From the NCBI RefSeq assembly GCF_009914755.1, contig NC_060948.1: a stretch of DNA of 64,000 bases; one strand, given 5' to 3'. This document shows, piece after piece, positions 9,480 through 29,048 of the stretch. The position numbers were made by a program, and so were the translations under genes. Source of the DNA: the human T2T-CHM13v2.0 reference genome, Homo sapiens. The notes beneath the pieces are model-generated. The model worked only from the letters and a program-made list of their open reading frames with translations, did no database searches and had not been told where the DNA came from. Each line of letters opens with the position of its first letter. Position 1 is the stretch's first letter.

Positions 9480-11210
9480 TGTTTAAAAAATGTCATATGA
9501 AATGATACATATTTACAACTTAAGGCGTGATGTTCAACAGGTCATATACATTATGCATTGGATACATCCAGCCAATCAACATATGTGTGACCTCACATAG
9601 TTGTCATTTTTGTTGTGAAAAAACTTGACTTGCACTGTATTCGAATATTTTTAGAGAAAGAATATGTTACCACTAGTTATAGTGAGCATGCTGAAGAAAA
9701 TATTTTTAACCTATTCCTCCTTTATAACTAGAAGTATGAGTTCTTCATCCAGCATCTCGTCAGTGCACCCTCTTCACCGCAGTCATTGGAGTCACTACTT
9801 CTGTGAAGTCCGCTTTTTTGATTTCATATAAGAATGAGATCATGTGCTATTTTCATTTCTGATACCTGGCTTATGTCACTTAACAGAATGGCATGCACAC
9901 ATTCAGCAGATTCCCACACATTCTCACAACTGGCAGGATTTCCTGATTTCTTATTGCAGCGCATATTTCCGTTGCGCATATGCGTTTTTGCCCCATTTTT
10001 TAATCCACTTATCAATGGAGGGACACTCAGGTTGCTTCCGCATTTTGGCTACAGCAAAAATGTAATGAGTGCAGCAATAATTGCATGGGTGCGCGCACCG
10101 CTTCAACATACTGATCTGTGTACTGGCGGGCGTGCCCGGGTATTCTGATTTGCTGGATCATATAGTGGGTGGTTCTAATTGTAGATTTCTGAAGGCTGTT
10201 TATACTTAAATAAGAGCCATAAAGCTTCTTTAATGCCAGCACTAATTTACATTCTCCCCAAAAGTGAGCAGGGAATTCGTTTTCTCTGCCTCCTCACCAG
10301 AGATTAGGGTTTTCTTTTCTTTCTTTTTTTTTTTTTGTTTGTTTGTCTTTCGGATAATATGCATTCTGACTGAAGTGAGAAGAAATCTCATTGTGTTTTT
10401 GATTTGCATTTTCGTGATGGATTGGGGATAATGAGGAATTTTTAGTGTGTCTTCTGGGCAACTGTATGTCTCAGTTTCACAAATGAGTCTTCGCAGCCTT
10501 CGCCCATTTGTTTTCATGCTATTGAGTTGTTGGGAGTTCCTTATGTACTGTGACTATTCCCCCATGAACAGATGTATGGTGATCCAATCATTGCTCCCAT
10601 CCTGTAGGATGCCCCTTCTGTATGTTGAGTTTTCTATGGTGTGGTGAAGCACTTTAGTTTGATATGATTCCATTCTCTATTTTTGATGGTGTTTACTGTG
10701 TTCTTGCAGTCACTTTGAGACCATCATTGCACACACGGACGCCATGGAGCTTCTTCCTTGTGATCTCTTCTGCTATTTTTATCGTTTCACATCTGACACT
10801 GGAGTTTGGTGATAAATAATCCACTTGTAAAATCCTTTGTGTGGCTATTCAGATTTCCCCAACCTAGTTTATAGAAGATACTTGATTTTGCATTGGGCGT
10901 TCTTGCTTCTTTGGGAAAAGGCTGTGAGCTGCAAATGCAGTGACTTAGTTCTGGGCTCCTGTTGTTTTTCCTAAGCTCTAGTCTCTGCTTTTCTGCCAGT
11001 GCTATTGTATTTTGGTACAAAAAGTTTTGTAGTAGTATATCATGAAGTTAGGTAGTGTGGTGGCTCCAGCTTTGTGCTTTTTACTGGATTGCTCTGGGTT
11101 TTCAGGATCTTCTGCCATTTCATAGCAAATTTGGGATTCCCAGATTGTTTTTCTAAGAAGAATGTGTCATTGATATTTTTACAGGGGTTGTATAGAATCT
11201 GAGGATGACT
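9480..11210 (-). mobile_element. Old LINE-1 fragment (3' ORF2/3' UTR), antisense
   Basis: Minus-strand peptides resemble the L1 ORF2p C-terminus: KMQIKNTMRFLLTSVRM (cf. EMQIKTTMRYHLTPVRM) and SSIFYKLGWGN (cf. SLFNKWCWEN). Heavily disrupted; boundaries approximate. Confidence 0.85.
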
Positions 11211-11276
11211 CAGGTAGTAGTGATGTCAATGCCGTTTAGACAATGTGCGTGTTTGTGTGCACAAGCTCAGGGCCAA

Positions 11277-12725
11277 GAGACACTGGGTGTCCTCACCAAT
11301 ACTGAGGTGGGCCTTAATATCCAGCCAGATTGCCTTCTGGAAACACACGGAATGTCCTGTTCTGTTTTGCCATCTCTTCACATTTCCTCCCCTGTGAGCC
11401 CTGTGTGGTCCTCCAGATTCCCTGTGCGGTGGCCTGCCTTTTTTGGGGTGGGGAGTTGCTGGGTGAATGAGGATGGCGGAGGGAACCAAGCATGTCAGTG
11501 GAGCGTGGTGTCATCCAAACGGTACTTAGCAGGCCTGGGAGAGTCATTCTGGGAGGACGCAGACCTAGAGAGGCCTCAGGTGGGCATCTGTGTGGAGGGT
11601 GAGAGATCCCTGGTTGAGCCCAAACTGAACCCCAGGTAGAAGCAAGCCTCAGGACAGGGAAGTAGCTAGCAAGGGATGATGAGGCAGCTATCTCTTGACC
11701 CTGGCTTCCCACCCATTGACCTTAGCTACTTATGCCTATTAAGCAGATTACGGTTCCCCCATCGTGAAATGTGGGTACCACAGTTCCCTGATGGGCATTT
11801 CTCCACCAGCCCATGATGGCCTGAGTTTCCTTACTGCAGTCTCCTCCCTGAGCCTTGGCTTCTCTATGTGTGTCCTAACTCCAGGACCCACAGGCCTGTC
11901 AACCCCCAGCCCTGGGCTGCTTCCCTGGCCTCTTCTCTGTTCCCTCTCTGAGGGCCTAACTCCCTTGGGTAGTGCTGCAGAATATAGAGCCACAGGCCCT
12001 GGCTGATGATCTGGTGGACTGGGCAAATTGGTCGTGACAGGTCAGGTTCTGGTTCAAAGCCAATTCCTCCGATGCCAAGGAATGTCGAAGAAGGTCCTTT
12101 GCCATGATGCCCCATAGCTGCCCCACCTCAGCAATCGTGCCGTAACCTGGGCCCTCACAGTCAGACAACCAGCTGAAGAAGCTCAGGCAGTGACCTGCGG
12201 GAAACTCGGGCTTTCACCTGCATGACCCTAGAACCACTGGACTGCAGTGGAGCCAGTCGCCCTGTATCCTGGAGGGAGACGAGTCAGGAAGGCGCACGCC
12301 AGGCCCAGCTCCCGAGGTACTACCCCCTCTACTCCTCAGGGAGGATGCCAACGCAATACTCCTTAGTCATCACTTTGTTTCCGAAGTAAATGTTGTGATG
12401 AAAGGCAAACTTCTTCCTACCCCTTGTATTCAGGGTGGCCGAGTTCCTCCACCTGCCTGTCCAAGAAGGAGAAACAGGGCTGTGAAGGGGCAATTTCATC
12501 TAGGTGGGCTGAGGTGGCATTCTAGCCGGGGTGAAGCATGCGTTTCCCCTTCCCAGCTTTCCCGCTGAGACACACCTGAGCCCCAGAAGGACCTCAACCT
12601 GACCAGGACCTTAGCACCCTCCCCCAGACCCAGGCTTTCCATCCTGACCTGCAAATCCAACATGCAGCTTTGAAGGACTTTCTCATGGTTTCTGAGCTCC
12701 TTGCTCTCACCAGAAAGAATCAGAA
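11277..12725 (-). pseudogene. Second degenerate TSPY-like relic (exons 2-5 plus 3' flank), unit 1
   Basis: Minus strand: ...KVLQSCMLDLQ (ends 12649); VEELGHPEYK/FHHNIYFGNKVMTKEYCVGIL (12452-~12340); GYRATGSTAVQWF*.../SFFSWLSDCEGPGYGTIAE (12268-12127); IISQGLWLYILQHYP (from 12010). Contains a stop codon, frameshifts and lost donors. Colinear with 19660-21130. Confidence 0.85.
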
Positions 12726-14743
12726 CTTTTAAAGTGTTCTTTATGCCAACTTAAATTTTTCATTTTTACTACCTCATGTTTTGGATGAGGCATGTATTTT
12801 TAAATTTATTTTCACCCTTATTGTACCTCTATGATAAACTGCTTGCTTACATTCATACCGTAATTATCTCTCAGGTTACTTGTCTGTTCCTAAAGATTCA
12901 CTGAAACGAAGAATTCTATATATGCTTGTATCTTTCAGCAACCGTATGTCAGATAGCACTGCACATTACTGCAGACATCGCATATACAGGTCCAAAGGTA
13001 GAGGAAGAAGAAGAAAGCAAGCGTTAAACTCTATTCATTCCTAAAAGCATATCAGAAACTCACAAATAACAGTGAAATCAAAGAATGATCACAGCCAATT
13101 CCATTACATACCTAGACTGAAATACGAAACTTCAAAGAAAAGAAACATTAGAACTTTGGGTTTGTAAAAATTTTCCTATATAGATAAAATTATTGGTAAC
13201 TGTGTCTCACTAGAAAACGTAAACAAAAATCCATGTTTTTCATATTTGTAAATATACATAGTTTTATTTCCATCAGTTATGACATGCAAGCAAGTAATAA
13301 AGTGAAAGTACAATCAAATGATATATGGAACTTCCTCAGTCTTAAAATATTCCATGGAGACTATCAATTTTATGAAAACTATAAAGAATGCTTCATGAAA
13401 CTACATTGTACAGTGCCATTTACTATTTTACTGACATTTTAAATAATCAACAATTAAAGGGAATACGTCAACATTATTTAATACCAATAACGTTATTTTT
13501 CTTGAGTAATCCTGTTGAAATTAAGGATTTTAAATAAAACATTAAAAACAAATTATATTGACTGATTTCAGCTTTGGATGAAATCATACTTGTGTATTTG
13601 TAGTAATGCGAAGCATAACTTTCTCCTCACAATTAATCTTTTATAACATCGGTGTTATAGTTTTCTCTGACACCAACATTGTGATATCGCACAGGTTTAC
13701 TGCATGCATGCATTACATGCCTCCAGAGAGTAGGCTTCAAATATATGGAAAAATTATATTTATGAAAAAATTCTAGGAAAGGGAATGGTGAAATGGAAGA
13801 GAATTTCTCACTTGCTAACTGTTGGACATGGATTTGTATATATTTGGATATAGACACATACTGGCACACTGTGAGTTTGCCCATGTATATATACACTTAT
13901 ATGAGAAACCCATAATATATGGGTTGTGTAATCTTTTAATTAATCCATAATTGTATGTGTGTGAAATTAGATAAGCGGTTACCTTTTCTTTACTCAATTT
14001 GATGGAAAGCCAAAAAACTCTGTCCACCTTCATTTCAATTAATCCAATACTGTTAACTGCTGGTAGCTTCATTCTCCTTGTTCTCTTACGGCAACCGGAA
14101 AGTTAATTCTCGCTCTAATTTGGCTTTCAAGGTGCGATCAACAAGAGTGTCACCTTGCTGTGGATTGTGACCTCTGACTCCACCTCTGTCTTCCTTTTGC
14201 AGTCCTACCTTTGCATAGGTAACAAACTTTGTACATGGTTAAAAGGATAAAAGTTCAGTGAAATGTCAAGCCATGCTGTGAAATGTTCCATAGTTTCTAT
14301 ATCTCTAATTGTCCTTTGATGTTATAGAGGCAAGAAAAATAATTCAATGTTTTTCTTAGTATCTAGTCCAATGCACTCTTTCTTCATAATACTGCAAACA
14401 AGGCACTGACATGGAAACGTGGCTGGACGTCTCAAAATCTCTTCTCATTAATTACCATTATGTTAATCACTGTTGCCCACAACTGGAATTGGACTTTGAA
14501 ATCCCCTGGTGGAAATTGCTATAATGGCTCAAACTACTGGAAAGACTATCTTTTTTTTACCTGAAAATATCTGATGAGCATAGACGTATGCTATATACAG
14601 GAACATATTGTACATTAACAACATACCATCACTGCCACTCAATAATAGGTATCCCAAACCTTTGAGCCAAACTGAGCTCGGGTGCTCCCACAAACCAAGC
14701 TTTTCCCTCCACAGATTTCTTATGTCAAAAAGCCACAACTCCA

Positions 14744-15050
14744 GGCCAGGCTTCGTGGCTCTTGTTGTAATTTCTACATTTTGGGAGGCCGAGGTTGGTG
14801 GGTCACTTGAGGTCAGGAGTTGGAGACCAGCATGGGCAACATGGCAAAAAGCTGTCTCTACCAAAAATACAAAAATTAGCCAGACCTAGTGGCACTTTCC
14901 TGTGGTCCCAGCTACTTGGGAGGCTGAGGCAGGAGAACCACCTGAACATGGGTGGCAGAGATTGTATAGTAAGCCAAGATCAGACTACTGCACTCCAGCC
15001 TGGATGACACAGCGAGACCATGACTGAAAAAAGAAAAAAAAAAAAATAAA
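14744..15050 (+). mobile_element. Full-length Alu with poly(A) tail
   Basis: GGCCAGG...TTTGGGAGGCCGAGG...GAGGTCAGGAGTT...TACCAAAAATACAAAAATTAGCC...GCACTCCAGCCTGG, then an A tail. CAACTCCA on both flanks looks like a target-site duplication. Confidence 0.95.
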
Positions 15051-15095
15051 GGCAACTCCACTCGTCCACTGGCTTAGGTAAAAAGTACTGGAGTT

Positions 15096-15402
15096 GGCTG
15101 GGCTCGGTGGCTCACACCTGTATTCCCAGCACTTTGGATTTTGGGAAGCTGAGTCGGGCGGGTCACCTGAGATCTGTAGTAGGAGAGCAGCCTGGCCAAC
15201 ATGGTGAAGCCTGGCTTCTACTAAAAATACAAAACATTAGCTGAGCGTGGTGATGCATGCTTGTAATCCCAGCTACTGCAGAGGCTGAACCTGGGAGGCG
15301 GAGGATGTGTTGAGCTGAGATCCTGCCACTGCGCTCCAGCCTGGTCTACAGAGCGAGAGTACCCTGTGAGAAACAAAGGTGAAGAGAACAAGAAAAAAAA
15401 AA
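15096..15402 (+). mobile_element. Second full-length Alu, in tandem
   Basis: GGCTGGGCTCGGTGGCTCACACCTGTATTCCCAGCACTTTGG...CCTGGCCAACATGGTGAA...GAGCTGAGATC...CTCCAGCCTGG, then an A-rich tail. Confidence 0.95.
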
Positions 15403-15509
15403 ATGAGAAAAATAAGACCCACTGCAAAAGGTTGCCACAGAAAAGATTAAACATTTCAGCAACTTCTATCTTCTGTCATGGAAGCCAAGGTTATTTGGAC
15501 CAAACCTCC

Positions 15510-15862
15510 TGTCTTAGTTCATTTTCACGCTGCTGAAGAAGACATACCTGAAACTGGGAATAAAAGGAGGTTTAATTGGACTGACAGTTCCACATGGCTG
15601 TGGAGGCCTCAGAATCATGGTATACGAATAAAGGCACTTCTTACATGGCAATGCCAAGAGAGAATGAGGAAGAACCTGAGGCAGAAACCCCTGAAAAACC
15701 CATCAGATCCCGTGAGACTTCTTCACTGTCACAAGAATAGCATGAGAAAGACCGACCCCCATGATTCAATTACCTCCCCCTGGGTCCCACCCGCAACACG
15801 AGGGAATTCTGGGAGATACAATTGAAGCTGAGATTTGAATGGAGACACACCAAACCATGTCA
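15510..15862 (-). mobile_element. Solo THE1-type MaLR LTR
   Basis: 353 bp with TG...CA termini. The minus strand begins TGACATGGTTTGGTGTGTCTCCATTCAAATCTCA (THE1 consensus TGATATGGTTTGGCTGTGTCCCCACCCAAATCTCA). The 5-bp flanks CCTCC/CTTCC resemble a target-site duplication. Confidence 0.9.
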
Positions 15863-16349
15863 CTTCCCAAACAATTAAAAATTCCCAATAGAAGAAGCAT
15901 TAATTATATCAAAAAGTGGTGGACCAAGAAGGAACTATTAGCCTCATATCTCAAGAAAGACTCCAGTCAAGGCCTAGGGACTACTCATGAAAAGAGTTTA
16001 ATAGCCGACTCTCTCCCAGTGGATCTGGATTCCACCGGACTGTATCTTCACAGTAAGGGTGAAACAGAAGCAAACCCATTCCTATTTCCAAGCTCAAGGA
16101 ACTTTGGTCAAAGTTCTCTTGGAGCTGAGCAGAACAAGGAGGCAAACAGAAAAGATTTGTGTCCCTGAGAAGTCATGGCCACAGGCTGGCTATCACACAG
16201 ATTGTCAAGCCAGTTCCATATTGCATGGGTATTACAGAAAATCTCAAAACATAAATTTGTGTGTGGGTTGTCCCAGAGTAGCAGGATCTGGCAGAAGGAA
16301 ATTTCCTTCTAACCCTCAAAGAATCCACATAAATCTTGTTACATTTGGG

Positions 16350-17300
16350 ATTTTACGATTTGCTTCAGGAATGAGAATGGCCTTAATTTTCATATCTTTT
16401 TCTACACTCAGTTTATGTCTTGTTGGCGTCAAAGTTCTGCTTGCTTCACACAATGAGTTTAGGATTTTCCCTTTTTTATTCTATAGAATTCTTCATATAT
16501 ATTGAAATGCTCTGCCTGGGGAAAAAAATCTGAGCCTAGCGTTTTATCTCTAGGAAGAATCCTTTATTTCCTTGAACATTTATGAGACTATACAGATTAT
16601 ATATGTCTTCTTGTATCAATTTTACTAAGCTATATACATAGCTTATGTTTATATATTATATATATAAATGTAAGATACAAATATAAAAATTATGTATAAA
16701 TATGAAAATATATATAGAAAGCGATATATATGTCTATATATATAGACAGATTATAAATATCTGTCTATTTGATCTAAGTTTTCAAATTTGTAGGTTAAGG
16801 TGTTAACGATATTTCCTTATTAGCTTCTTAATCTATGCTGTATCTATGGTTGTGTACCTTTTAAATTCTTAGTTTTATCTATGTTTTCTCCCTTTTTTTC
16901 TAAACTTGACTGACGGTTGCATCATTTATTATATTTCTCCAACAAGCAGAGGTTAGCTTTGTATGTTTTACTAATTTTGTCTACATCATTATTCCCACAC
17001 TTTAGTTTTTCAGAATTGATTCTGTTGTTTCTTTTCTAATTCTTTATTGAAATATCTAGTACATTAATTTTCAAGTTATTAGAGAAATATTTGTCTGTAA
17101 ACTCCTATTGTAATATCACTTTTCTTGCTACTCACAGATTTAATCTTTAATATTGGCGGTATCATTGAGTTCTAAGTACATTTCAATTCCTAGTATGATA
17201 ATCTATGAATTGCTGAGAAATAGTGTTTACAATTTTGTTGTTCTATTTCCACTTAAGTTTATTTTTACTTCTGCTAACTCAATTGAAAATTCTTTACTAA
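16350..17300 (-). mobile_element. Probable ancient L1 fragment with internal AT-rich tract (copies ~36650-37600, ~56960-57910)
   Basis: T-rich plus strand. TTGGCGTCAAAGTTCTGCTTGCTTCACACAATGAGTTT resembles the antisense L1 ORF2 motif TTTGGTATCAGGGTAATGCTGGCCTCATAGAATGAGTT. Judged by eye only. Confidence 0.55.
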
Positions 17301-17311
17301 TTTTTAAAATC

Positions 17312-17425
17312 CTTGAACCCAAGAGATGGAGGTTGCAGTGAGCTGAGATCAGGCCACTGCATTCCAGACTGAGTGACAGAGTGGAACGAGATTTCAAAAC
17401 AAAACAAAACAAAACAAAACAAAAC
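17312..17425 (+). mobile_element. 5'-truncated Alu right-arm fragment with (CAAAA)6 tail (copies 37614-37727; 57925-58043 with 7 units)
   Basis: CTTGAACCCAAGAGATGGAGGTTGCAGTGAGCTGAGATC...CCACTGCATTCCAGACTGAGTGACAGAG followed by (CAAAA)n. Confidence 0.9.
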
Positions 17426-18984
17426 AGTCACTGGAAAGATAATAAAATACATAAATGTGGGATGTAATATGTAATCGTGATAAAATAAACTGGATTTTTT
17501 GTATAAGTTATACATATAAATGTAATGCCAAGACACTGATAAGACAACTCATGGTCTTATCTCAATACTTAGTGTCTTCATGTAACATATGTCCTTTAGG
17601 ATAGTTATAGTCCGTTTTCTTTCCAGGAGAGACAGATGAGAATGCAGAAATGTTAAAGTGCAAGGGACGGAAGCTTCCAGCTGTGCCCACCTGTAACCTG
17701 ACGTAGACAGTTCCACCGTTTGCTTCATTAATCATGCCAAAGGCTCTAATGCAAATGTGGTACAGAGTCACATGTTTTTGTATCTACATGATAGAAACTA
17801 TAACTTCATCCCTATATAGAAGGGTATATAGCATATGCCTCAGTGATAAATATAAGTGAATCATTGATCAGTAGGAAACCATTTTAAAAGTCTTTCATAA
17901 CAGAACAAAATCCCTGAAAACATTTTCTTCTCAATCTCTGAGTTTTCTTACACGGCTTATGAATCTCTAGCCATACTAAAGAGATAGTATGCTGCTCTTC
18001 CCACAAATTATTCATTGTATATAATTCCTGTAATCTAATAACAGTACCTTTACACCTCAGGGTTTAAAATGACTCCAACCTTTTTCTGTTTCTCCAATTA
18101 AAATAACTTTTTTAAGGTTTAATCTTCAGTAATTTTTTGTAGTAATATTTTTGAAGGTATTTGACCAGGATGATTTGCTTATATACCTACCTGACGTCTC
18201 CCTTTCTTCTGAATACATATTTTATTACCCACCTATTAGATCTAAGTTTAAGAAGTTGGAATAGGGATTTAAATCTAAATTCTACATTTGAATTTACAGG
18301 AGTCAGCGAGTCCGGGAAGTGCCTTTATGCACAGACCAATATCTGGCAATGGCACTAGGAGACAAATAAGCTTTACCAGTCTCAAAGCCCTGGCTACTAC
18401 AGTGAATCCACCCTTCTCCTGGATCTTATCTACTTCAGCAAAAGAAGGCCACCCACTAAACCAGGCCCTTGTACTTTGGGTGGAAACTCCTAAGTCCTCT
18501 AGTCTCCTCAAACAGACAGCCAGGCTGCCAATTTCCACAATAATAATTTCTATAGCACTGAGTCTTTGGTAGCCTTGTAACTATAGCTACTGATGCTACA
18601 GTCTGGTCCCTGTATGATAAAACACCAGAGCAACAGAAACAAAAATATTGACTGAAGCCTTCTAAAATCTCTCTAAATATACCTTCAATAAATATGGTTT
18701 TTTTTACAGAACGACTGCTTTCAGCTTCCTGAACTAACGCTTGGCCTTCGCTAGTTGTCACTGTTGAAATTGATTCAAAAGTGTACATTTAACATGAAAG
18801 TCAACACAGAATTTCATGTGTCAGCAACTAAAATTTTCAAAATGTTGCAAAATACAAATGTGAAACTGTATTTGTGAAATTTACCATTCATTGAAATTAT
18901 ATTTTCATACCTACCCAGGCACAGAATTTTTTATAACTGTCTGCATGTTCTCCTCATGTGGGGGAAAAGCAGCATCAGCAGGCA

Positions 18985-19084
18985 GAGGAATCCTTTGAAG
19001 CTGGAGGGAGAGGTTGCAGTGATCTGAGAGTTTGCCACTTGACTGCAGCCTGGATGACACAGTGAGACTCCAACTGAAAAGAAA

Positions 19085-19237: not shown

Positions 19238-20367
19238 TCCTTGAAAACGAAAGTTCCACAAGGGCAAAACAAGAAAACAAATTTAACACCCCCCAAAGAA
19301 AGTACAAAGAGTAACCTCAAAAGAACTGCAGGGGAAAACAATTCAAAATTTACAAGTATCTACCCTAAAAGAAGCTGAAAGTCCCTCAAAAACTTTCCAG
19401 AGGCCATGTCCTTGTATTACAAAAATGATCATAAAAACTGGCAGGAGTAGACGAATAGAAATGCATCTTAAAACTTGCTAAACCCTTCAAGTCTCCCATA
19501 AGAATTGTAATGGAAAATGGATCGGTCGGCAGCTTTTTCCATACAATTATGAACAAATTATATTTCTTCATACATAGATTTGTTTTTTCAATATTCTAAG
19601 GAATTAACTTTTATATTAATAGTAGGTGATGTAAGAAAGCAGGCCTTTATCAAGATAACTGACACTGGATGTCCATACCATTACTCAGGTGGGCCTTAAT
19701 TCCCAGCCGGGTTCCCTCCCTGGACACACACTGAAGGTCCCCAGCCATTTGGCAATCTCTTCACATTCCCAGCCCTGGAGGTAGCCCTAAAATACATGTA
19801 CCTGAAGAAAATAAAACATTGCCTCACACTGGAGCCCAGTGTGGTCCTCCAGATTCCGTGTGAGGTGGACTAACTTATATGGGAAGGCAGGGCAGCGGGA
19901 GTGAGGATGGCAGAGAGGATTACACATGTCAAGGCAGCCGGGGTCATGGAAACAAAACATGACTGGCCTGGGAGAAACACTGTGAAAGGACATACACCTA
20001 GGTGGGCCTCAGGTGGACATCCTCGTGGAGAAAAAGGGGGCCCTGGTTGATCTCAAAATGAGCCCCAGGTGGTAGCAGGTCTTACCGCAGGGCAGGGAGC
20101 TGGCGAGTAATGATGAGACAGCTATCCCTTAAGCCCTGCTTGTCACCCACTGACTTTAGCCACATATGCATCATAGTGGCTTAAGGTGCCCCGATCCTGA
20201 AATGTGGGTGTTACATGTCCCTGATGGGCCTCTCTCCCCCAACCCACGGATTGCCTGGGATTGCTCACTGCAGTCTCCTCCCGGATCCTTGGGTTCTCCA
20301 TGTGGGGCCCAGATCCAGGTCAAAAGGCCTCTCAGTTCCCAGCCCTTCCCAGCCCTAGGCTGCTCGC

Positions 20368-22944
20368 CTGGCCTCCTCTCTGTTCCGCCTCTAGGGCTGA
20401 CCCTCTCTCCATGGGATAGAACTGCAATGGATTGAGCCATAGGCCCTGGCTGATGATCTAGGGGACTGCAGAAGTGGGTCCAGGACAGTTCAGGTGACAG
20501 TTCAAAGCCAATTCCCCAGAGACCAAGGAATGACCAGCTAGGTCCTTTCCCATGATGCCCCACGGCGAACCCCACCTCAGCAATCCTGCCAAAACCCGGG
20601 CAGTCATGTTCAGCCAAACAGCTGAATGAGCTCAGGTAGGAGGTGTACTGCCTGCAGCTGGAGGCTTGACCTTCGTGATCCCAGAACCGCTGGACTGCAG
20701 TGGAATGAGACACCCTGTAGCCTGCAGGGAGAGGAGTCAGGAAGGTTCATGCCAGTCCCACCCTCCCACACACCAGCTCCCCTACCATGCTGGGAGGCAT
20801 TCCTTACCGAGGATGCCAACACAGTGCTCCTTCATGATGATTTCACTGTGGAAATAAAGGTTGGGATGAAAGGAAATCATCCTGCCACCGGTAACCGGGA
20901 TGGCTGAGTTCCTCCACCTGCCGGATCAAGGAGAAAGAGGATGGATTCAATGGGACCATCTCAACTAGCCGGGCTGAGGTGGCCTACTAGCTGTAGTGAA
21001 CCATGAGTTTCCCCTTCCCAGCTCTCCCACTGAGACAACCCTGGTCCCCAGGGGGACCTCAAACTGACTCAGACACTGGACTCCTCCCACAGACCCAGGC
21101 TCCCCAGCCTGACCTGCAAATCCATCACGTAGCAAAGCAGGACTTCCGCATGCTTTCCGACCCACGCCGACATCTCGTGTGCCAAACAATCTACCTCTGC
21201 GCAAGAACTCTCCAGAGGATTGGGTGGGCAAGCCTCGTGACGCCTTGCAATTTCGCAAGAACACAGACAATGTGGAACAGGGCCATCTCCCAGACATTTG
21301 GCCAGTCACCCTTCATTGTTGGCCCTCTATCTCTGTCTGGCGAGGAGGCAACGCCACAACTGTGGTGGTTTTTGGAGTGGGTGGACCCCGGCCAAGACGG
21401 CCTGGGCTGACCAGAGACGGGAGGCAGAAAAAGTGGGCAGGTGGTTGCAGCTGAGGGACGGGAGGGGCCGGGGGTGGTGTGAGGCGGCTGCTTCTCTGAG
21501 TTTCTGAGATGCAGGAGGCCTTTGTGTGCTGGGTGCTGGACATGCTCCGCTGATGTCCGGGTGTGTGGTGTCCTCTTATCCTAGTCTCCCTGAGGGGTGG
21601 GCCTGTCCACCTGAGGGAAGCCTTGTAGTTAGAAGCCACAGCAGGGTCGTGCCTGGCGCTCTCCAAGGGAATTGCGCGGGTCCAGAGGAAGTTATACAGG
21701 CTCAGGGCCTACACGCCTTTGAGTGCAGCGCCTGCAGTTGGATGAATGCGCATCTGCGGAGCTGGTGCCCGCCGTCAGGTGGTCGGCAGCCCCATGCGCC
21801 GCGAACCCGTCTTAAGCACCTTGTGTTTCTGGGGTGAGCCTGCTGGAAACAGGCACCGAGAGCAGGGGTGGTTCAATGGCTGGTAATGGCATACAGATTC
21901 CCCGTCCTCCAGGGACGTTCCCAGGAAAACGCGTCCTTCGAATTTGGGCTGTGCGCAAAGGGACCTTGGCGCCGCGATTCTCCCTTGTCAGTGCTGGCCC
22001 TGGCTCCCCTTCCCTACCACGTGCTCCCAGGGCTGCTACAAGCGAGCTGCCCTCACAGCTGCGGGAACGTGGCCTCGGCTCCCACGCTGTCCCCCATCCC
22101 CTGCCTCCTGGCTGACCCCACGCGCCTCCCACCTGGCTCCTCCCCCCAAACAGCCCCCATACCCCCCGAGGCCCGATGACTATCCCCTGCTGCCCGCCGT
22201 CCCAAATCGGCAGCCGCAAGGATATGGCTCTGGCTCACAAGGCGGAGATGCTCTGTGGCCTAGGGCATTCACGGAGCCCAGCTCCAAGTGAAGGACCTCC
22301 AGCGAGTCCATTGACGGCCCCGGTGTGCTCGGTCCAGGGCCAGGCTGTGCCCGCTGGCCCTCCTTCTGCCACCCCACGTCGGGCTCCACCTCAACCACCA
22401 CCTCCACCTCAGCCATGATGTCTTCCACCTTCAGCACCGCCTCCTCTTCCAAGGCCGCCTCCTTGCTCTGTACCCCGGCCGTCCTCTCCAGCATTGCCTC
22501 CAGCCTGAACACGGTTTTCTCCTGGGTGCTCCCACAGACCCTGGGCCTGCGCAGCCCAGCCCAGCCCAGCCCATGCCCCGCACCCGTAGGCTCTGGGGGC
22601 CCGCTCCCCAGCAGACCCGCTCCCTGCAAGACCCACGGGCGTCGCCCTGCTGTGAACCTGGTCCCACACCTACGTGGACCCAGGTTTCCTGAGGAGCTCC
22701 GCTGGACCCGCAGATCCCGCACTGGCCAAAGGGCTCCGGTCCCCAGCAGGCTCAACTGCGCACAGGAGCTCGGGAGCCAGAGGCCCCGGCCCTGGGCTTG
22801 CAGAGCCCCACCAACAGGCACCGCAACCGCTGCTGCGGGTGCGGGAGCCTCTGGGTCGTCAAGGCAGCGCACAACAGCGTGCGCGCAGGCCGACAATGGC
22901 CAACCCTGGCGGCTGGCCTCTGGTGTGCCCAGGGCATAGGACAA
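20368..22944 (-). pseudogene. FAM197Y: FAM197Y-type inverted TSPY paralog, unit 2
   Basis: Copy of 51-2627 at offset +20317. Exon homologs at 22239-~22607, 21895-21948, 21114-21190, 20808-20917, 20576-20721, 20368-20457. Confidence 0.85.
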
Positions 22945-24118
22945 GAGGCCCTTTGGAATGCTCCTTGGAGTACAGCATCCTCAGGGAGGAAGCATGGTAC
23001 TCGGAGCCTCTATTTGCCTCGACCTGTGAGAGTGTGTGCCGGGGCTCTGGCCTCTACAGCAGATCAATTCCACCTCAGCACCGGCAGGCGACTTTCCTCC
23101 CACGTGCCCGCCCCGATCACTTCCCCCAGGACACCCCTGCCGCCCTAGCCCCAGCAACCAGAGAGAGTTCTCTGCATCTGCTGTATTACCTCCGTACCAT
23201 CTACCTGGCCTGCCTAACGAAGAGAGATGTTTCCTGTGTTCATGACACATAGAGATGTTCATGGCTTGCCACACTGAGGATGTCAGGGCACAGGGCTGCC
23301 ATGCCCACAATTCCAAAGGCCACGCAGCCCGCGTGTGCCCGGATGCCTAGCTACCCGGCACAAGCTCCAAGGGCTTCTCGGAGGAGGCTTGGGCAGGGAA
23401 GGCAGGGGGGTGGGGGGGCTGGAGATGCAGGCCCGCCAGTGGCTGTGCCGCCCAGGGAGACGCCCACCGCCCTCCCATTGATTGGCCACGACGGGAGGAA
23501 GTCGGCCTGGGTGCGGCCCCCCGGCCCTTCGCGCGCAGTCCCTTAGGGGGCGCCTGGAAGCCCGGCGCATGCGCCCTGAGGGCTCGCTGACCTACCGGGT
23601 GCCAGAGAGGCTGCGGCAGGGTTTCTGTGGCGTGGGTCGGGCAGCACAGGCCTTGGTGTGTGCGAGTGCCAAGGAGGGCACCGCCTTCAGGATGGAGGCT
23701 GTGCAGGAGGGGGCGGCCGGGGTGGAGAGTGAGCAGGCGGCTTTGGGGGAGGAGGCGGTGCTGCTGTTGGATGACATAATGGCGGAGGTGGAGGTGGTGG
23801 CGGAGGAGGAGGGCCTCGTGGAGCGGCGGGAGGAGGCCCAGCGGGCACAGCAGGCTGTGCCTGGCCCTGGGCCCATGACCCCAGAGTCTGCACCGGAGGA
23901 GCTGCTGGCCGTTCAGGTGGAGCTGGAGCCGGTTAATGCCCAAGCCAGGAAGGCCTTTTCTCGGCAGCGGGAAAAGATGGAGCGGAGGCGCAAGCCCCAC
24001 CTAGACCGCAGAGGCGCCGTCATCCAGAGCGTCCCTGGCTTCTGGGCCAATGTTGTATCCTTCTCAGTGTTTCTTCGGCCTTTCTAGTGGAGAGGTGCTC
24101 TCGGGGAAGTGTAAGTGA
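21717..24118. promoter_or_regulatory. CpG island / divergent promoter, unit 2
   Basis: Paralogous copy. Carries an inverted CCAAT box (ATTGG 23481-23485) absent from units 1 and 3. Confidence 0.75.
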
Positions 24119-26131
24119 CCGATGGGCAGCTCGGCGTCGATGTGACTCTTTGGGGAACAAAGGGGAGTTGCCACGGACCAGTGTGGCTGTGGAAAGCCGG
24201 AGCAGGCGTGGGTACTATTGTCCTGCATGCGGCAGAGAAACCCTTGGTGATGCCGAGCAGCAGACGTTTGGGGCATCTTTTTGAAGAGCAGAAGCGAGTT
24301 CAGAGCGGAAGAGGTTTTTCAGTGAATGAAGCTATTTTTAAGGGAGTGTGATTGCTGCCCCTTGCTAGTCCGATCTGGGACTGGGCGTCTTCGGCTATAA
24401 GCAGATTCTGCCACTCCTCAGACACCAGCAAGTCTCTGCAAATCGCGCCTCCCCATGTCAGTGCAGTCAGCCTCAGAATCATACACCCTCTGTGAACACA
24501 GGAGGCCTTAGTTTAAGGGGAGGGGGAGGCGAAAGGAGATCATACATGGAAGCAGATCTGAGAAATCCCCTACCCCAGCCTCTGGGTGCTCTTAGGCCTT
24601 CTTCCCTGTTGCTCCTCGCTTTCCCTTCCATCGTGTGTAAAGTCTCTTTGACCTAAATCAGATTGCAAACCACCCCCAGATGTCAGCCCTGATCACTGAC
24701 GAAGATGAAGACATGCTGAGCTACATGGTCAGCCTGGAGGTGAGGCCAGGAAGACTGGGGCTAGAGGGTTTAGCGGGGGAGGGTAAGGGAAATAATTCAT
24801 TCCTGTAAGCAAGAGTGAGCACCTCACCCGAAAACCTATCTAAGCTTTCTCCACCTTGTCCTGACAGGTGGAAGAAGAGAAGCATCCTGTTCATCTCTGC
24901 AAGATCATGTTGTTCTTTCGGAGTAACCCCTACTTCCAGAATAAAGTGATTACCAAGGAATATCTGGTGAACATCACAGGTGACAGGTGGCTCCCAGGAT
25001 GGGTAGTGGAAGGAAGATGGTGGGTGGATCATTGCCAACGGGATCCAGCCCCCTTCCCACAAAAACTCCTGTCTCTGTAGAATACAGGGCTTCTCATTCC
25101 ACTCCAATTGAGTGGTATCCGGATTATGAAGTGGAGGCCTATCGCCGCAGACACCACAACAGCAGCCTTAACTTCTTCAACTGGTTCTCTGACCACAACT
25201 TCGCAGGATCTAACAAGATTGCTGAGGTGAGTCCTCACTGGGAAACATGAGGAATGACCCCATGTGTTCCCAGCTGCTTGGGTCACCTTTCTGAGCCCTG
25301 ATGAGGCCTTTCCCGATTGAGTCCCCTGACAGATCCTATGTAAGGACCTGTGGCGCAATCCCCTGCAATACTACAAGAGGATGAAGCCACCTGAAGAGGG
25401 AACAGAGACGTCAGGTGAGCCGTTAGTTGGCACTGGAGCTGTTTGATGCCCAGTATAAGGGGGTTGACACACCTGCCTATTCAGGGAGCCTGGGTGCTCA
25501 TTTCAGAAATGTAGAAATTGAGGCTCCTTTCGTACATGTAGAAATTCCTTGAGAGGAAGACAGAGAGTGACAGAATCCAGGACGTTCATGGCATTGGGCT
25601 GAAAAGGCACGTTAGAGACTGCACTGCAAAGCGGGTGATAGCTGTGGAGTCTTAAGCCCAGTGAAGAATCGTCCATTTCCAGAATCAATGAGAAGTAAAG
25701 CTGAAAATCATTCAGTTCAGTCTGTGGCACTTGATTCCACGGCTGTCAACCCCACCGGCAGTCATCCCACCAACCCCATGAGATTGGGCTCCCTGAATGT
25801 GCGTCCTGGTCATCCTTGCCCCAAACCACAAAGGACTGTTTAGATTGATGGATTTCCTTAAGCTGTTGCCCCATCAGACTTGTGTGTGCTTTTAGGGCCC
25901 AGTGCATCTTGTTAGCTGACTCCCCTCACAGACAATACTGGGAATGGGGCAGGGATTGCGCAGAACAGTTTGTAACACGTGGTAGGAGGAAGTTTAAGGG
26001 ATCACAAATGGGGAAGGGATATCCTTTTCTCAGCGGGCCCCACAATTGAAACATTTCAAAGTATGGCTCAGAGAAAATGCGTTTTAACATGAGTTTGTGT
26101 TTCTCTAGGGGACTCCCAGTTGTTGAGTTGA
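23569..26131 (+). CDS. TSPY: TSPY copy 2, 308 aa (P109 variant)
   Basis: Exons 23569-24054, 24662-24739, 24868-24979, 25081-25226, 25333-25414, 26109-26131 with intact splice sites. Codon 109 is CCG (23893-23895). Confidence 0.97.
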
Positions 26132-26301
26132 ATATGATGGAGCATCAGATTTTACCTAATACAGCAGAACTCCTAAAAAGTTACAGCCATATGCAGGACG
26201 GCAGTACTCAGCATGGTCTTATGCACAGGAACTAAAGGAAAAAGAGATCGAGTCACAAAAATTCAGGAAGAGGGGGTAAATGTGGATTGTATGGAATGAA
26301 A

Positions 26302-26307
26302 AATAAA
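26302..26307 (+). terminator. TSPY poly(A) signal, unit 2
   Basis: AATAAA at the paralogous position. Confidence 0.85.
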
Positions 26308-29048
26308 CATTCTCAAGGATGTGTGACTCTGTGTCTGTGTGTGTGTGTGTGTCTTTGTGTTTGTGTGTGTGTGTGTCTGTGTGTGTATGTTTATCCACTT
26401 TATTCGGGTGTCATAATGAATTGATCAATCCACGTGCTTTATTCTCTTCATGGAAATAACCAGTCTGCGTTGGAGCTGGGCCTCTAAAGTTGTAGAGTGA
26501 ATGGGTGTGGGATGTGTTGGGATTCTTCCTACAGGACAGAGTGGGAGAGGTAAAAGCAAAAGACAGCTTAGTTGGAGGCTGACTTCGTCCTATGGAAGCA
26601 GAGATAGTTCAAGGAAAGGGGTTACTGGGTTTCCAGGGCCCAGTTTGCTGGGACCTCCAAAATCCTTCATTTTGGGTATCATCATACACAGTAGCTAAGC
26701 ACAGGATGATGGAAATCTTAAAGTTCGCTTTCGTGTTGAATCCACATGTTCTTTTAAAGGTGAATGCATGATCCTTTTCTGGGACAATCAGCCTCTCAGG
26801 ACTTCTGAAACATCAACGTGAGAAGAAATGGGCATGTAAGGTGTATGGAGGGACTGTGGGAAAGGTGACAGAGGCATGTGGGAAGGCATTCAGGATACGC
26901 TTTTGGCAGAGATGACTAAGGGAAAACAGAAACTTACAGAAGTGAGGGGAAAGGGGGTGGATTAGTGGAATATAAGATTGTTGGAGAATCCATCCATGGA
27001 CTCTCTTGTCACTTGATGACCCAGGATATGGACACTCTTGTTGATGTTTACATCTTTAGTTGTTTTAAGCTTTTCTCCAAGATTCTGTGTTAGGTGAGGA
27101 GCCAATAACGTATGTAGCTAACAACAGTACGAGTGCATTTTGTGCTCTTGCAAAGTCTAGTGAGGCTCTATTCTCCCTCGTGATTGGCACTGCAGATTGT
27201 ATCTGGACCCAGGGCCCCTAAATTTTCTGTGGCCTCTTCAGCATAGTTTGCCTAAGGTTTAGAACGTAAAGCGAATATAGTTGCGGAATATGTTTTGCAA
27301 GCCTCACACAGGAGGACAAAACATACAGCTTTCATTCGCGAGTGGGAGGCTGCTTCCCAGGAACACGTGTGTCTGCACAAGACAAGGGGTTGCCTCTGTC
27401 AAGGATGGGGCAGGAGGATTTCAGTGTCGGAGGCAGAACTTTCTTTCCTGTTCCCAGATGAAACAGTTCCAACACGAGCATCCATGTTGACCACACGCTA
27501 CTAGAGTGCTAACATTGCTGTCCTGTATAGACTCCAGTCAGCACAGCTTCTGTGAGAAGAGCTATGTTGTTTCAGGGAAGAGGGTTTGACAGTCAAAGTT
27601 CCTGAATCTGTTGTGGTGCCTGCAATATGCATTCTACCCCTCCTGCTCGGTGTCAAAGCAGTTGAGCTTTGAAAATCTATCGCCCGGTTTTGTCCCTGCT
27701 CCTATGCAGACCTCTGAAGCTCTGGAGCGGGAGTCTTGTCCTCCTCTGACTACCGTCCCCCTGACCCACAAACACAGGAGAAACAGGTGTTCTAAGCAAA
27801 TTATTCTGAAAACAGTCGGAACACTTTGGCCCCCTCAAGCTGCCCTCTATCCTACTGTGTGCATGTCAAAGACACTGTGGTCCAGTACGGTATCCCTATA
27901 GCGGCAATGGGGCAACAGATTGGTGTGTGCACTCTGGGCAACTCAGATTAGGAAACATCTGGGGAGTTGCCTATAACGAGGTCGTCTTAAAACGTGTTGC
28001 CCCAAATTTAAGGCATAGGAAAATGTTGAGGAAAGGGTCTTGCAATGATTTTTCTAGGAGGTAAATAGATAAGAAAATGACCGTAAATAGATGCCAGGGC
28101 TAGTTTTGGAGCTAGCCTTTTTTAAAGTGGTGGTAGGGGAGGAGGTTTTTCCAAGGCAGGTAGCAAACCAGGAACTGTCTACGATGGATGGGCGTGCCAT
28201 GGGTTGGTGGCTCAGCCATATTGCCACCCCACGGAGTCGATGCAGCAGACTGGGCTTCTTGCTTGAATCCTACGTGCAATTCAGTCTAGTGATTTCACAT
28301 GAGATCCCTTCTTCTGGTATTATCACAGATCGTGCTGAATTATACAGGCTGTGTAATGCTTCTTCCACTGAATATCCGTGCACGTGGGCCACAGATGCTA
28401 AGGGCACTGACAAATTTGCACCGTGCCTCAGTAACTCGGAAGCACATCTGTGATTTGTACCGACAGGGACTTGGTGTCTTTTCGTGTTTAAAGTAGCACG
28501 TGTGTGTTTGTGGTTGCGTATGTTTATTTCTCTGTGCGGGTTTGTATATTTTCTCTGACTCCACCTATGTCTCCGTGGTTCCGATATTTTTCCACACTCC
28601 CTGCGACAATTTGCACATGCCTATCTCTACAACCATTGTAGACTTTGTATCTGTGTCTTTGAACATCTGTCACTCTCTCTCCCTTCCTTTTTTCTTTTCC
28701 TTCCTTTACACCCCTCCTTTCATCCTTCCCTTGCTTCCCCACCACACTCTCTCCATCTGTATCGTCTATCTTTCTATTCTCTATCTGGGTTTACTTTCTA
28801 ATTCTGAATTCAAGGGCATTGAATTGAAAAGAAGCACTCTTCGTACTTTTATGTGTTTTAACTCATTTGGGGAATTTGGCGTGGTATTATTTACAGGGTT
28901 CTCTCTGCCCTTTCTCATTGTTCTCCCCAGCCGGGGCTGTTATTATGTGAAAGCTGGTTTCCTTCATCACATCGCGTAGGCTCTAATGATGTTTCGTTTA
29001 TTTTGATTCTCCTCACACTACATAGTTTTAATTTACCTAATGTGACTG

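What the first reader, a model, noticed from the sequence alone, without database searches (positions are those of the whole stretch)
11277..12725. A third TSPY-family relic per unit: promoterless exon 2-5 duplicate ~8.4 kb downstream of FAM197Y
11277-12665 is a colinear, clearly diverged direct repeat of 19660-21130. For example, ACTGAGGTGGGCCTTAATATCCAGCC matches ACTCAGGTGGGCCTTAATTCCCAGCC, and both ends contain CCTGACCTGCAAATCCA. It shares diagnostic residues with FAM197Y (VEEL.HP, CVGIL, STAVQ, IISQGLWL) but is locally closer to TSPY (YFGNKVMTKEY vs [19 protein letters not shown] vs NFFNWFSD). It has a TAG in exon 4, frameshifts, and dead donors after exons 3 and 5. So the 20.3 kb unit is itself a fossil three-gene cluster (one TSPY plus two inverted paralogs) that predates array amplification. 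Its intact acceptors (12452, 12268, 12010) lie downstream of the next unit's FAM197Y on the same strand and could be spliced into long isoforms.
Basis: partly seen in the sequence, partly recalled or inferred. Interest (0 to 1): 0.7.

Follow-up and report, generated by a model that had tools for sequence, protein, structure and literature searches.

The report
Dead TSPY paralog in every repeat
Every 20.3 kb repeat of the human Y-chromosome TSPY array carries an unannotated, broken fragment of a TSPY-family gene that lost its promoter and first exon by a deletion; it and the neighbouring FAM197Y RNA gene are likely dead human copies of a second ancient TSPY gene type for which intact proteins are predicted in cats, horses, bats and whales.

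Summary
Observation confirmed. Window 11279-12695 (minus) is a colinear TSPY-family relic, 72.5% identical to FAM197Y, present in all 46 array units and in at least 6 other Y loci. It is not a partial copy of FAM197Y (AU p=9e-6) and not closer to TSPY. It is sister to dispersed exon-1-bearing Y pseudogenes and lost promoter, exon 1, intron 1 and the first ~31 nt of exon 2 in one ~2.9 kb deletion. It diverged from FAM197Y neutrally (exons 74.8%, introns 74.7%), and both share an exon-3 frameshift, so the unit held one gene and two pseudogenes, not three genes. The FAM197Y-TSPY-relic cassette predates the array: a single copy lies on Yq at 83-85%, and the tandem junction maps to 17311|17312 inside an Alu. 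Protein trees put FAM197Y and the relic with a second eutherian TSPY subfamily (99/99; AU tests borderline, p=0.017-0.050); exon 1 disagrees. No evidence for splicing into FAM197Y isoforms. Evolutionarily informative, functionally most likely inert.

The parts
11279..12695 (-). TSPY-family relic (R): 3' part of exon 2 through intron 5, colinear with FAM197Y 19661-21160
12649..12695 (-). Remnant of exon 2 (last 47 of 78 nt), no acceptor, GT donor kept
12695..12696 (-). Junction of the ~2.9 kb deletion that removed promoter, exon 1, intron 1 and the start of exon 2; shared by 52 Y loci
12340..12452 (-). Exon 3 homolog, 113 nt (TSPY 112), AG acceptor intact, donor CT, in-frame stops
12127..12268 (-). 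Exon 4 homolog, 142 nt (TSPY 146), AG and GT intact, in-frame TAG shared with the C clade
11925..12010 (-). Exon 5 homolog, 86 nt, AG intact, donor GG
12696..14550 (-). AT-rich Y-specific upstream flank shared at ~80% with exon-1-bearing C-type pseudogenes; AATAAA at 13268 and 12810 on the minus strand
10200..11270 (-). Old interspersed repeat that ends the homology on the 3' side; shared by R-type copies; LINE-1-like by recalled resemblance, no Pfam hit
17311..17312 (.). Ancestral tandem-unit junction: relic-side flank joined to the right part of an Alu that is whole in the single Yq cassette
19661..22600 (-). FAM197Y body (F): TSPY-family pseudogene with exon 1-5 homologs, head to head with TSPY
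23555..26319 (+). Intact TSPY gene (T) of the same F-T-R cassette
   Evidence: supplied annotation

Best explanation
The 1.4 kb block is a broken, intron-containing copy of a TSPY-family gene that lost its promoter and first exon in a 2.9 kb deletion and likely rides along as an inert passenger in every array unit. Inferred history: (1) an ancestral eutherian duplication gave two TSPY subfamilies; human TSPY is type A, and FAM197Y, the relic and about 20 further dispersed Y pseudogene loci are type B (inferred, about 0.7). (2) The primate type-B gene acquired a +1 frameshift in exon 3 and then multiplied as a pseudogene (shown: shared indel, neutral divergence). (3) One branch gained two exon-4 stops, then the deletion and a 3' repeat insertion, giving the R type (shown by shared characters). 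(4) F, T and R stood together in one cassette that was copied to Yq (shown). (5) A non-homologous tandem duplication with one end inside an Alu made the 20.3 kb unit (junction shown, mechanism inferred), and unequal exchange and conversion amplified and homogenised it (established for this array).
For: Colinear exon-intron homology. DNA tree of 23 Y copies: R clade 100/100, R+C 96/96, F and D separate; R+F rejected p=9.3e-6. Base-level deletion junction matching C-type flank on one side and C-type exon 2 on the other; 2.7-2.9 kb extra in 4 of 5 C copies, 3.5 kb in the fifth. TAG in 13 of 13 R+C and 0 of 7 F+D; TAA in 11 of 13 and 0 of 7; exon 3 is 113 nt in 14 of 20 and 110 nt in 2 of 20, against 112 in 3 of 3 TSPY-type copies. 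R vs F exon 288/385, intron 596/798, p=1; codon positions 0.73/0.77/0.74. Yq cassette chrY:22,336,897-22,354,761 at 83-85% in F-T-R order; the array starts with F at 8,939,361 and ends after R at 9,871,278. Protein tree: pseudogenes inside a clade with bat, carnivore, horse, camel and whale TSPY at 99/99, human TSPY in a separate 96/96 clade that also holds horse, camel, whale and bat paralogs; closer to the B than to the A paralog of the same taxon in 39 of 40 comparisons, human TSPY closer to A in 4 of 4 (rows are kin, not independent). PMC6280758 reports two TSPY subgroups in cat and infers multicopy TSPY in the eutherian ancestor (passages).
Against: AU tests of the subfamily placement are borderline: pseudogenes + primate TSPY p=0.017, + whole A clade p=0.047, + simian TSPY p=0.050; only 128 columns and a long stem (0.50). 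Of 13 A/B diagnostic columns the relic has 5 B, 1 A and 7 other states, and the catfish outgroup also has 5 B states, so some are ancestral. Exon 1 of FAM197Y is closer to human TSPY (50% aa, 72.8% nt over 313 bp) than to laurasiatherian proteins (about 30-37%), which needs gene conversion to fit. The alternative DNA tree with C outside R+F+D is not rejected (p=0.061). The relic-side flank beyond 14550 differs between R copies in a way that does not follow the gene-body tree. No expression data were available, so inertness is inferred.
Confidence: 0.78

Rival explanations
1. The relic and FAM197Y are primate-specific duplicates of TSPY itself that decayed quickly; their grouping with laurasiatherian type-B proteins is a long-branch or retained-ancestral-state artefact.
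For: Exon 1 of F is 72.8% identical to TSPY, about the same as the R-F distance; long stem; two of three AU tests at p about 0.05; outgroup shares B states.
Against: Introns 2-5 are only 48-52% identical to TSPY and K2P is 0.72-0.79, against 0.22-0.31 within the family; B clade 99/99 under a site-mixture model; exon 1 is more alike than the NAP exons between A and B paralogs in horse (0.90 vs 0.61), camel (0.75 vs 0.52) and whales (0.93 vs 0.79) though not bats (0.45 vs 0.46), so exon-1 conversion seems to recur.
Confidence: 0.2
2. The relic is a direct partial (exon 2-5) duplicate of FAM197Y made inside the unit.
For: It is the best match within the unit, same strand, 72.5%.
Against: R+F clade rejected p=9.3e-6; R shares flank and stops with C copies, not F; the junction is a deletion junction.
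Confidence: 0.03
3. The relic supplies alternative 3' exons to long FAM197Y RNAs, giving antisense read-through toward the 3' end of the preceding TSPY and a possible regulatory role.
For: Three AG acceptors with pyrimidine tracts, kept in 24 of 24 R-copy sites; the annotated FAM197Y4 end at 15304 lies inside an Alu without a poly(A) signal or donor, so the model looks 3'-incomplete; FAM197Y is transcribed in testis (PMC6545630 passage).
Against: 0 of 10 listed RefSeq models reach it; two AATAAA lie between FAM197Y and the first acceptor; acceptors survive in 55 of 60 sites family-wide; no exon-intron difference between R_array and R_22.35 (0.859 vs 0.868); two of four donors are dead.
Confidence: 0.15
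4. The block is a transposon or generic repeat present twice.
For: The T2T-Y preprint lists five new 'fam-*' repeat subunits in the unit (passage); the relic may have been filed as one (not checked).
Against: TSPY exon order, phases and splice sites are preserved; all scored relatives are on the Y.
Confidence: 0.01

Closest known systems
FAM197Y / CYorf16, the antisense transcription unit in each TSPY repeat
   Same: Same strand, 72.5% identical, same pseudogene family, same exon-3 frameshift. PMC3954084 describes each unit as one TSPY1 plus one CYorf16 pseudogene transcription unit (passage). That CYorf16 equals FAM197Y is recalled, and fits position and strand.
   Different: FAM197Y keeps exon 1, a CpG-rich promoter shared head to head with TSPY, and RefSeq transcripts; the relic has none of these and belongs to the other main branch.
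Dispersed unprocessed TSPY pseudogenes of the human Y
   Same: Intron-containing, broken, Y-specific; the T2T-Y preprint says most TSPY pseudogenes form a branch apart from the coding copies (passage).
   Different: This one sits inside the repeat unit and was amplified to 46 copies; it has no row in the supplied RefSeq table. Which named pseudogenes match my C, D and R copies was not determined.
Second eutherian TSPY subfamily (cat TSPY1a/c, cow-like; PMC6280758)
   Same: Tree and paired-paralog tests place the relic with cat Q1WF20 and bat, horse, camel and whale proteins of one type.
   Different: Those are predicted intact proteins; the human lineage is broken. That Q1WF20 is TSPY1a/c is inferred from its being the cat protein outside the human clade; no cow protein was in my set. 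The paper found no cat ortholog of CYorf16 when treating it as an antisense ORF.
TSPY (TSPY1/3/4/8/10), NAP/SET family PF00956
   Same: Homologous exons 2-5 with the same intron positions.
   Different: About 60% exon and 48% intron identity, opposite strand, no open frame.

Membership tests
Unprocessed TSPY-family pseudogene | Homology to TSPY coding exons in order | tested here: met
Unprocessed TSPY-family pseudogene | Introns kept at TSPY positions | tested here: met
Unprocessed TSPY-family pseudogene | Disabling lesions (stops, frameshifts, lost start and promoter, dead donors) | tested here: met
Unprocessed TSPY-family pseudogene | Neutral divergence | tested here: met
   exon = intron identity, no codon-position bias
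Unprocessed TSPY-family pseudogene | No translated product or functional RNA | not testable with these tools
   no expression data
FAM197Y family (direct duplicate) | Forms one clade with FAM197Y copies | tested here: not met
   p-AU 9.3e-6
FAM197Y family (direct duplicate) | Exon 1 and promoter head to head with TSPY | tested here: not met
   deleted
Eutherian TSPY subfamily B | Groups with laurasiatherian type-B proteins in the NAP domain | tested here: met
   99/99, 90.7/89, 39 of 40 paired comparisons
Eutherian TSPY subfamily B | Alternative placement with type A rejected | tested here: inconclusive
   p-AU 0.017, 0.047, 0.050
Eutherian TSPY subfamily B | Exon 1 agrees with the NAP-domain placement | tested here: not met
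   exon 1 of F and C copies is closer to human TSPY; the relic has no exon 1; conversion is the proposed cause
Eutherian TSPY subfamily B | Conserved genomic context across orders | not testable with these tools
   no other mammalian genomes held
Transposable element | Dispersed copies on many chromosomes | tested here: not met
   (scored candidates only)

The most novel reading that the evidence does not exclude
FAM197Y/CYorf16 and this relic are the human remains of the second ancestral eutherian TSPY gene; the head-to-head TSPY/FAM197Y pair could be a 100-million-year-old arrangement whose exon 1 is repeatedly homogenised by gene conversion, and the TSPY array began with one tandem duplication whose breakpoint is still readable at 17311|17312.
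Probability: 0.45. Interest if true: 0.65.

Novelty: new member of a known kind. Interest (0 to 1): 0.45.

Why it matters
It changes the description of the TSPY array from one gene plus an orphan lncRNA per unit to one live gene plus two dead paralogs. It gives FAM197Y/CYorf16 an origin, links it to a TSPY subfamily thought lost from primates, and supplies dated landmarks (deletion junction, Yq cassette, Alu-internal unit junction) for reconstructing the array in ape and monkey T2T Y chromosomes. Practically, it adds at least 52 homologous loci that matter for TSPY-family probe design and pseudogene counts. It is unlikely to reveal a new function.

Tried and rejected
A whole-genome DNA search with the relic was saturated by array copies (40 of 139 candidates scored); dispersed relatives came from a pattern search and from queries with a diverged copy. 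Protein search with FAM197Y exon 1 found only two unnamed near-copies. Pfam gave no retroelement family for 7 short frames of the 3' repeat. A first mixture-model tree held two wrongly cut rows and was rebuilt without them and eight redundant rows. The exon-1 tblastn did not separate A from B paralogs. Acceptor retention as a sign of selection was rejected (55 of 60 family-wide). 'Closer to TSPY' was rejected. Nine literature searches and term searches in the papers read found no description of this relic or of FAM197Y as a type-B TSPY paralog; subscription papers, GENCODE/CAT tracks and several supplements were not visible. Earlier scan findings were not available.

Full report
1. Observation. 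A self-comparison of one unit shows a same-strand diagonal between 11380-12695 and 19816-21160 at 72.5% over 1358 columns, continued by 11279-11394 vs 19661-19777; a pairwise alignment shows one colinear block with a 53-nt gap. The local score is 882 against 27-32 for 10 shuffles. The block recurs in the other two units. tblastn with the annotated TSPY protein finds exon 3, 4 and 5 homologs in order on the minus strand.

2. Anatomy. On a 23-copy alignment the relic R has: the last 47 of 78 nt of exon 2 (12695-12649, GT donor), exon 3 (12452-12340, 113 nt, AG, donor CT), exon 4 (12268-12127, 142 nt, AG/GT, in-frame TAG), exon 5 (12010-11925, 86 nt, AG, donor GG), and intron 5 up to 11279, where an old interspersed repeat begins (autosomal matches; LINE-1-like by recall; no Pfam hit). 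R is no closer to TSPY than FAM197Y (F) is: exon 3 63/112 vs 65/109, exon 4 85/142 vs 96/146, exon 5 55/82 vs 53/82.

3. A Y-wide family. A 16-mer shared by R and F has 194 matches with at most one mismatch against 12 for the control; the 98 exact ones are all on chrY, 94 further matches were not listed. Queries with a diverged copy found about 12 exon-1-bearing loci that share R's upstream flank (type C), about 9 other exon-1-bearing loci (type D) and several R-like loci, all on chrY (40 candidates scored each). I analysed 5 of the 12 C and 3 of the 9 D loci, 8 R, 4 F and 3 TSPY-type copies; the rest are typed by BLAST pattern only. The tree gives R 100/100, C 100/100, R+C 96/96, F 100/100, D 99/100, all far from TSPY. 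R+F is rejected (p=9.3e-6); R+F+D without C is not (p=0.061). R+C is backed by the shared flank and by stops: TAG in 13 of 13 R+C and 0 of 7 F+D, TAA in 11 of 13 and 0 of 7.

4. How R lost its promoter. Left of 12696|12695 R matches the C-type upstream flank, right of it the middle of C-type exon 2. C copies hold 2914, 2884, 2856, 2725 and 3543 bp between these points, including exon 1 and intron 1. The junction pattern occurs 52 times, control 0: 46 in the array, 1 in the TSPY2 unit, 5 dispersed. So R is a whole-gene copy cut by one deletion, not a partial duplicate.

5. Dead before it was copied. Exon 3 is 113 nt in 14 of 20 pseudogene copies and 110 nt in 2 more, against 112 in TSPY; four copies have other lengths. 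R vs F identity is 0.748 in exons and 0.747 in introns with no codon-position bias, whereas each differs from TSPY less in exons than introns (p about 1e-4, intron alignment uncertain). The unit is thus one gene and two pseudogenes.

6. Older than the array. A single F-T-R cassette lies at chrY:22,336,897-22,354,761, 83-85% identical to the unit. The array starts with F at 8,939,361 and ends after R at 9,871,278. Relic-side homology in three other loci stops at window 17311; Yq homology starts at 17312, inside an Alu that is whole on Yq. That is the unit's founding junction; the last two units carry it at 95% and are 88-92% identical to the array, so the tandem state is old. K2P: R-F 0.31 (0.27 without CpG columns), array-Yq 0.15, 0.17, 0.12 for R, F, T. 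With 1.7% human-chimpanzee Y divergence (PMC3924835) and rates of 1.3-2e-9 per year (my assumption) this gives roughly 30-65 My for the cassette copy and 55-120 My for the R/F split; these dates are rough inferences.

7. Which gene died. Protein searches returned mammalian TSPY proteins. Pseudogene exons 2-5, read with X at breaks, fall in a clade with bat, carnivore, horse, camel and whale proteins (90.7/89 with 54 of 69 rows; 99/99 with 34 rows under LG+C20), while human TSPY lies in a 96/96 clade with primate, tree-shrew, squirrel and second horse, camel, whale and bat paralogs. In taxa with both types the pseudogenes are closer to B in 39 of 40 comparisons by identity (38 of 40 by score), TSPY closer to A in 4 of 4. 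PMC6280758 (passages) reports two cat subgroups, one with human and dog, one with cow, and infers a multicopy ancestor with lineage losses. Against: AU tests are borderline (0.017, 0.047, 0.050), the stem is long, some B states are ancestral, and exon 1 of F and C is closer to human TSPY. Exon 1 is also more alike than the NAP exons between A and B paralogs in horse, camel and whales but not bats, and partial 5' conversion among TSPY copies is reported in macaques (PMC4772468 passages), so conversion is a plausible but untested fix. I put this step at about 0.7.

8. Splicing claim. Acceptors are intact in 24 of 24 R sites but also 55 of 60 family-wide. None of the 10 lncRNA models at FAM197Y positions in the supplied table reaches R. 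FAM197Y4 ends inside an Alu without a poly(A) signal, so its true end is open; AATAAA occurs at 13268 and 12810, before the first acceptor. Untested; about 0.15.

9. What is known. The T2T-Y preprint (passages) describes one composite unit per gene with five new 'fam-*' subunits; PMC3954084 (passage) one TSPY1 and one CYorf16 per unit. Passages of 10.1101/2022.12.01.518658, 10.1101/2023.11.30.569198, 10.1101/2024.04.02.587783 and PMC13252187 have no mention of FAM197Y; the supplementary table file of PMC11168930 has 0 occurrences, and I saw 30 of its 151 TSPY places. PMC3924835 (parts 1-2 of 4) counts five human TSPY pseudogenes. PMC6545630, PMC13447663, PMC12679747 and PMC11436988 (passages) add nothing on the relic. 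Nine searches (listings only for papers not named above) found no description. Supplements of the T2T-Y and 43-Y papers, the large PDFs of PMC11168930 and PMC13252187, and GENCODE tracks were not visible and may already annotate R or its dispersed relatives.

10. Verdict. Real, unannotated in the supplied RefSeq table, most likely inert. A new member of a known kind with an informative history: interest 0.45.

Noticed in passing
window 17311|17312; L022 (chrY:22,336,700-22,337,000): The founding junction of the 20.3 kb TSPY repeat falls inside an Alu that is complete in the single Yq cassette; a few bases of possible microhomology. The Alu looks AluS-like by recall.
   Followed up: partly
chrY:22,336,897-22,354,761 (L022-L023): A complete single FAM197Y-TSPY-relic cassette on Yq, 83-85% identical to the array unit; its TSPY copy is broken in exon 5.
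   Followed up: yes
chrY:10,228,198-10,231,696 (L028): In the TSPY2 unit the FAM197Y body is only 86-87% identical to the array while TSPY and the relic are over 99%: a sharp edge of homogenisation.
   Followed up: no
chrY:9,847,000-9,871,278 (L016-L018): The last units of the array decay stepwise (95%, 92%, 88%), preserving older states of the unit.
   Followed up: partly
window 15304-15363 and 18915-19073: The last two annotated FAM197Y4 exons start in antisense Alu sequence; the last ends mid-Alu with no poly(A) signal, so the model looks 3'-incomplete.
   Followed up: partly
window 22180-22980 (-): A 266-codon stop-free frame covers FAM197Y exon 1 (49% to TSPY residues 30-129); no ATG-based reading or expression was tested.
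   Followed up: no
P0010/P0028, P0017/P0053, P0011/P0023: Horse, camel and whale type-A and type-B TSPY proteins are far more alike in exon 1 than in the NAP exons, suggesting repeated conversion of exon 1.
   Followed up: partly
window 14550-17311: Relic-side flank beyond 14550 is shared by the array and the 8.85, 9.87 and 22.49 Mb copies but not by the 22.30 and 22.35 Mb copies, at odds with the gene-body tree.
   Followed up: no
chrY 8.43, 9.99, 10.11, 6.02, 23.00, 23.09, 23.26 Mb: Copies of the upstream flank with no gene-body match among the scored candidates.
   Followed up: no
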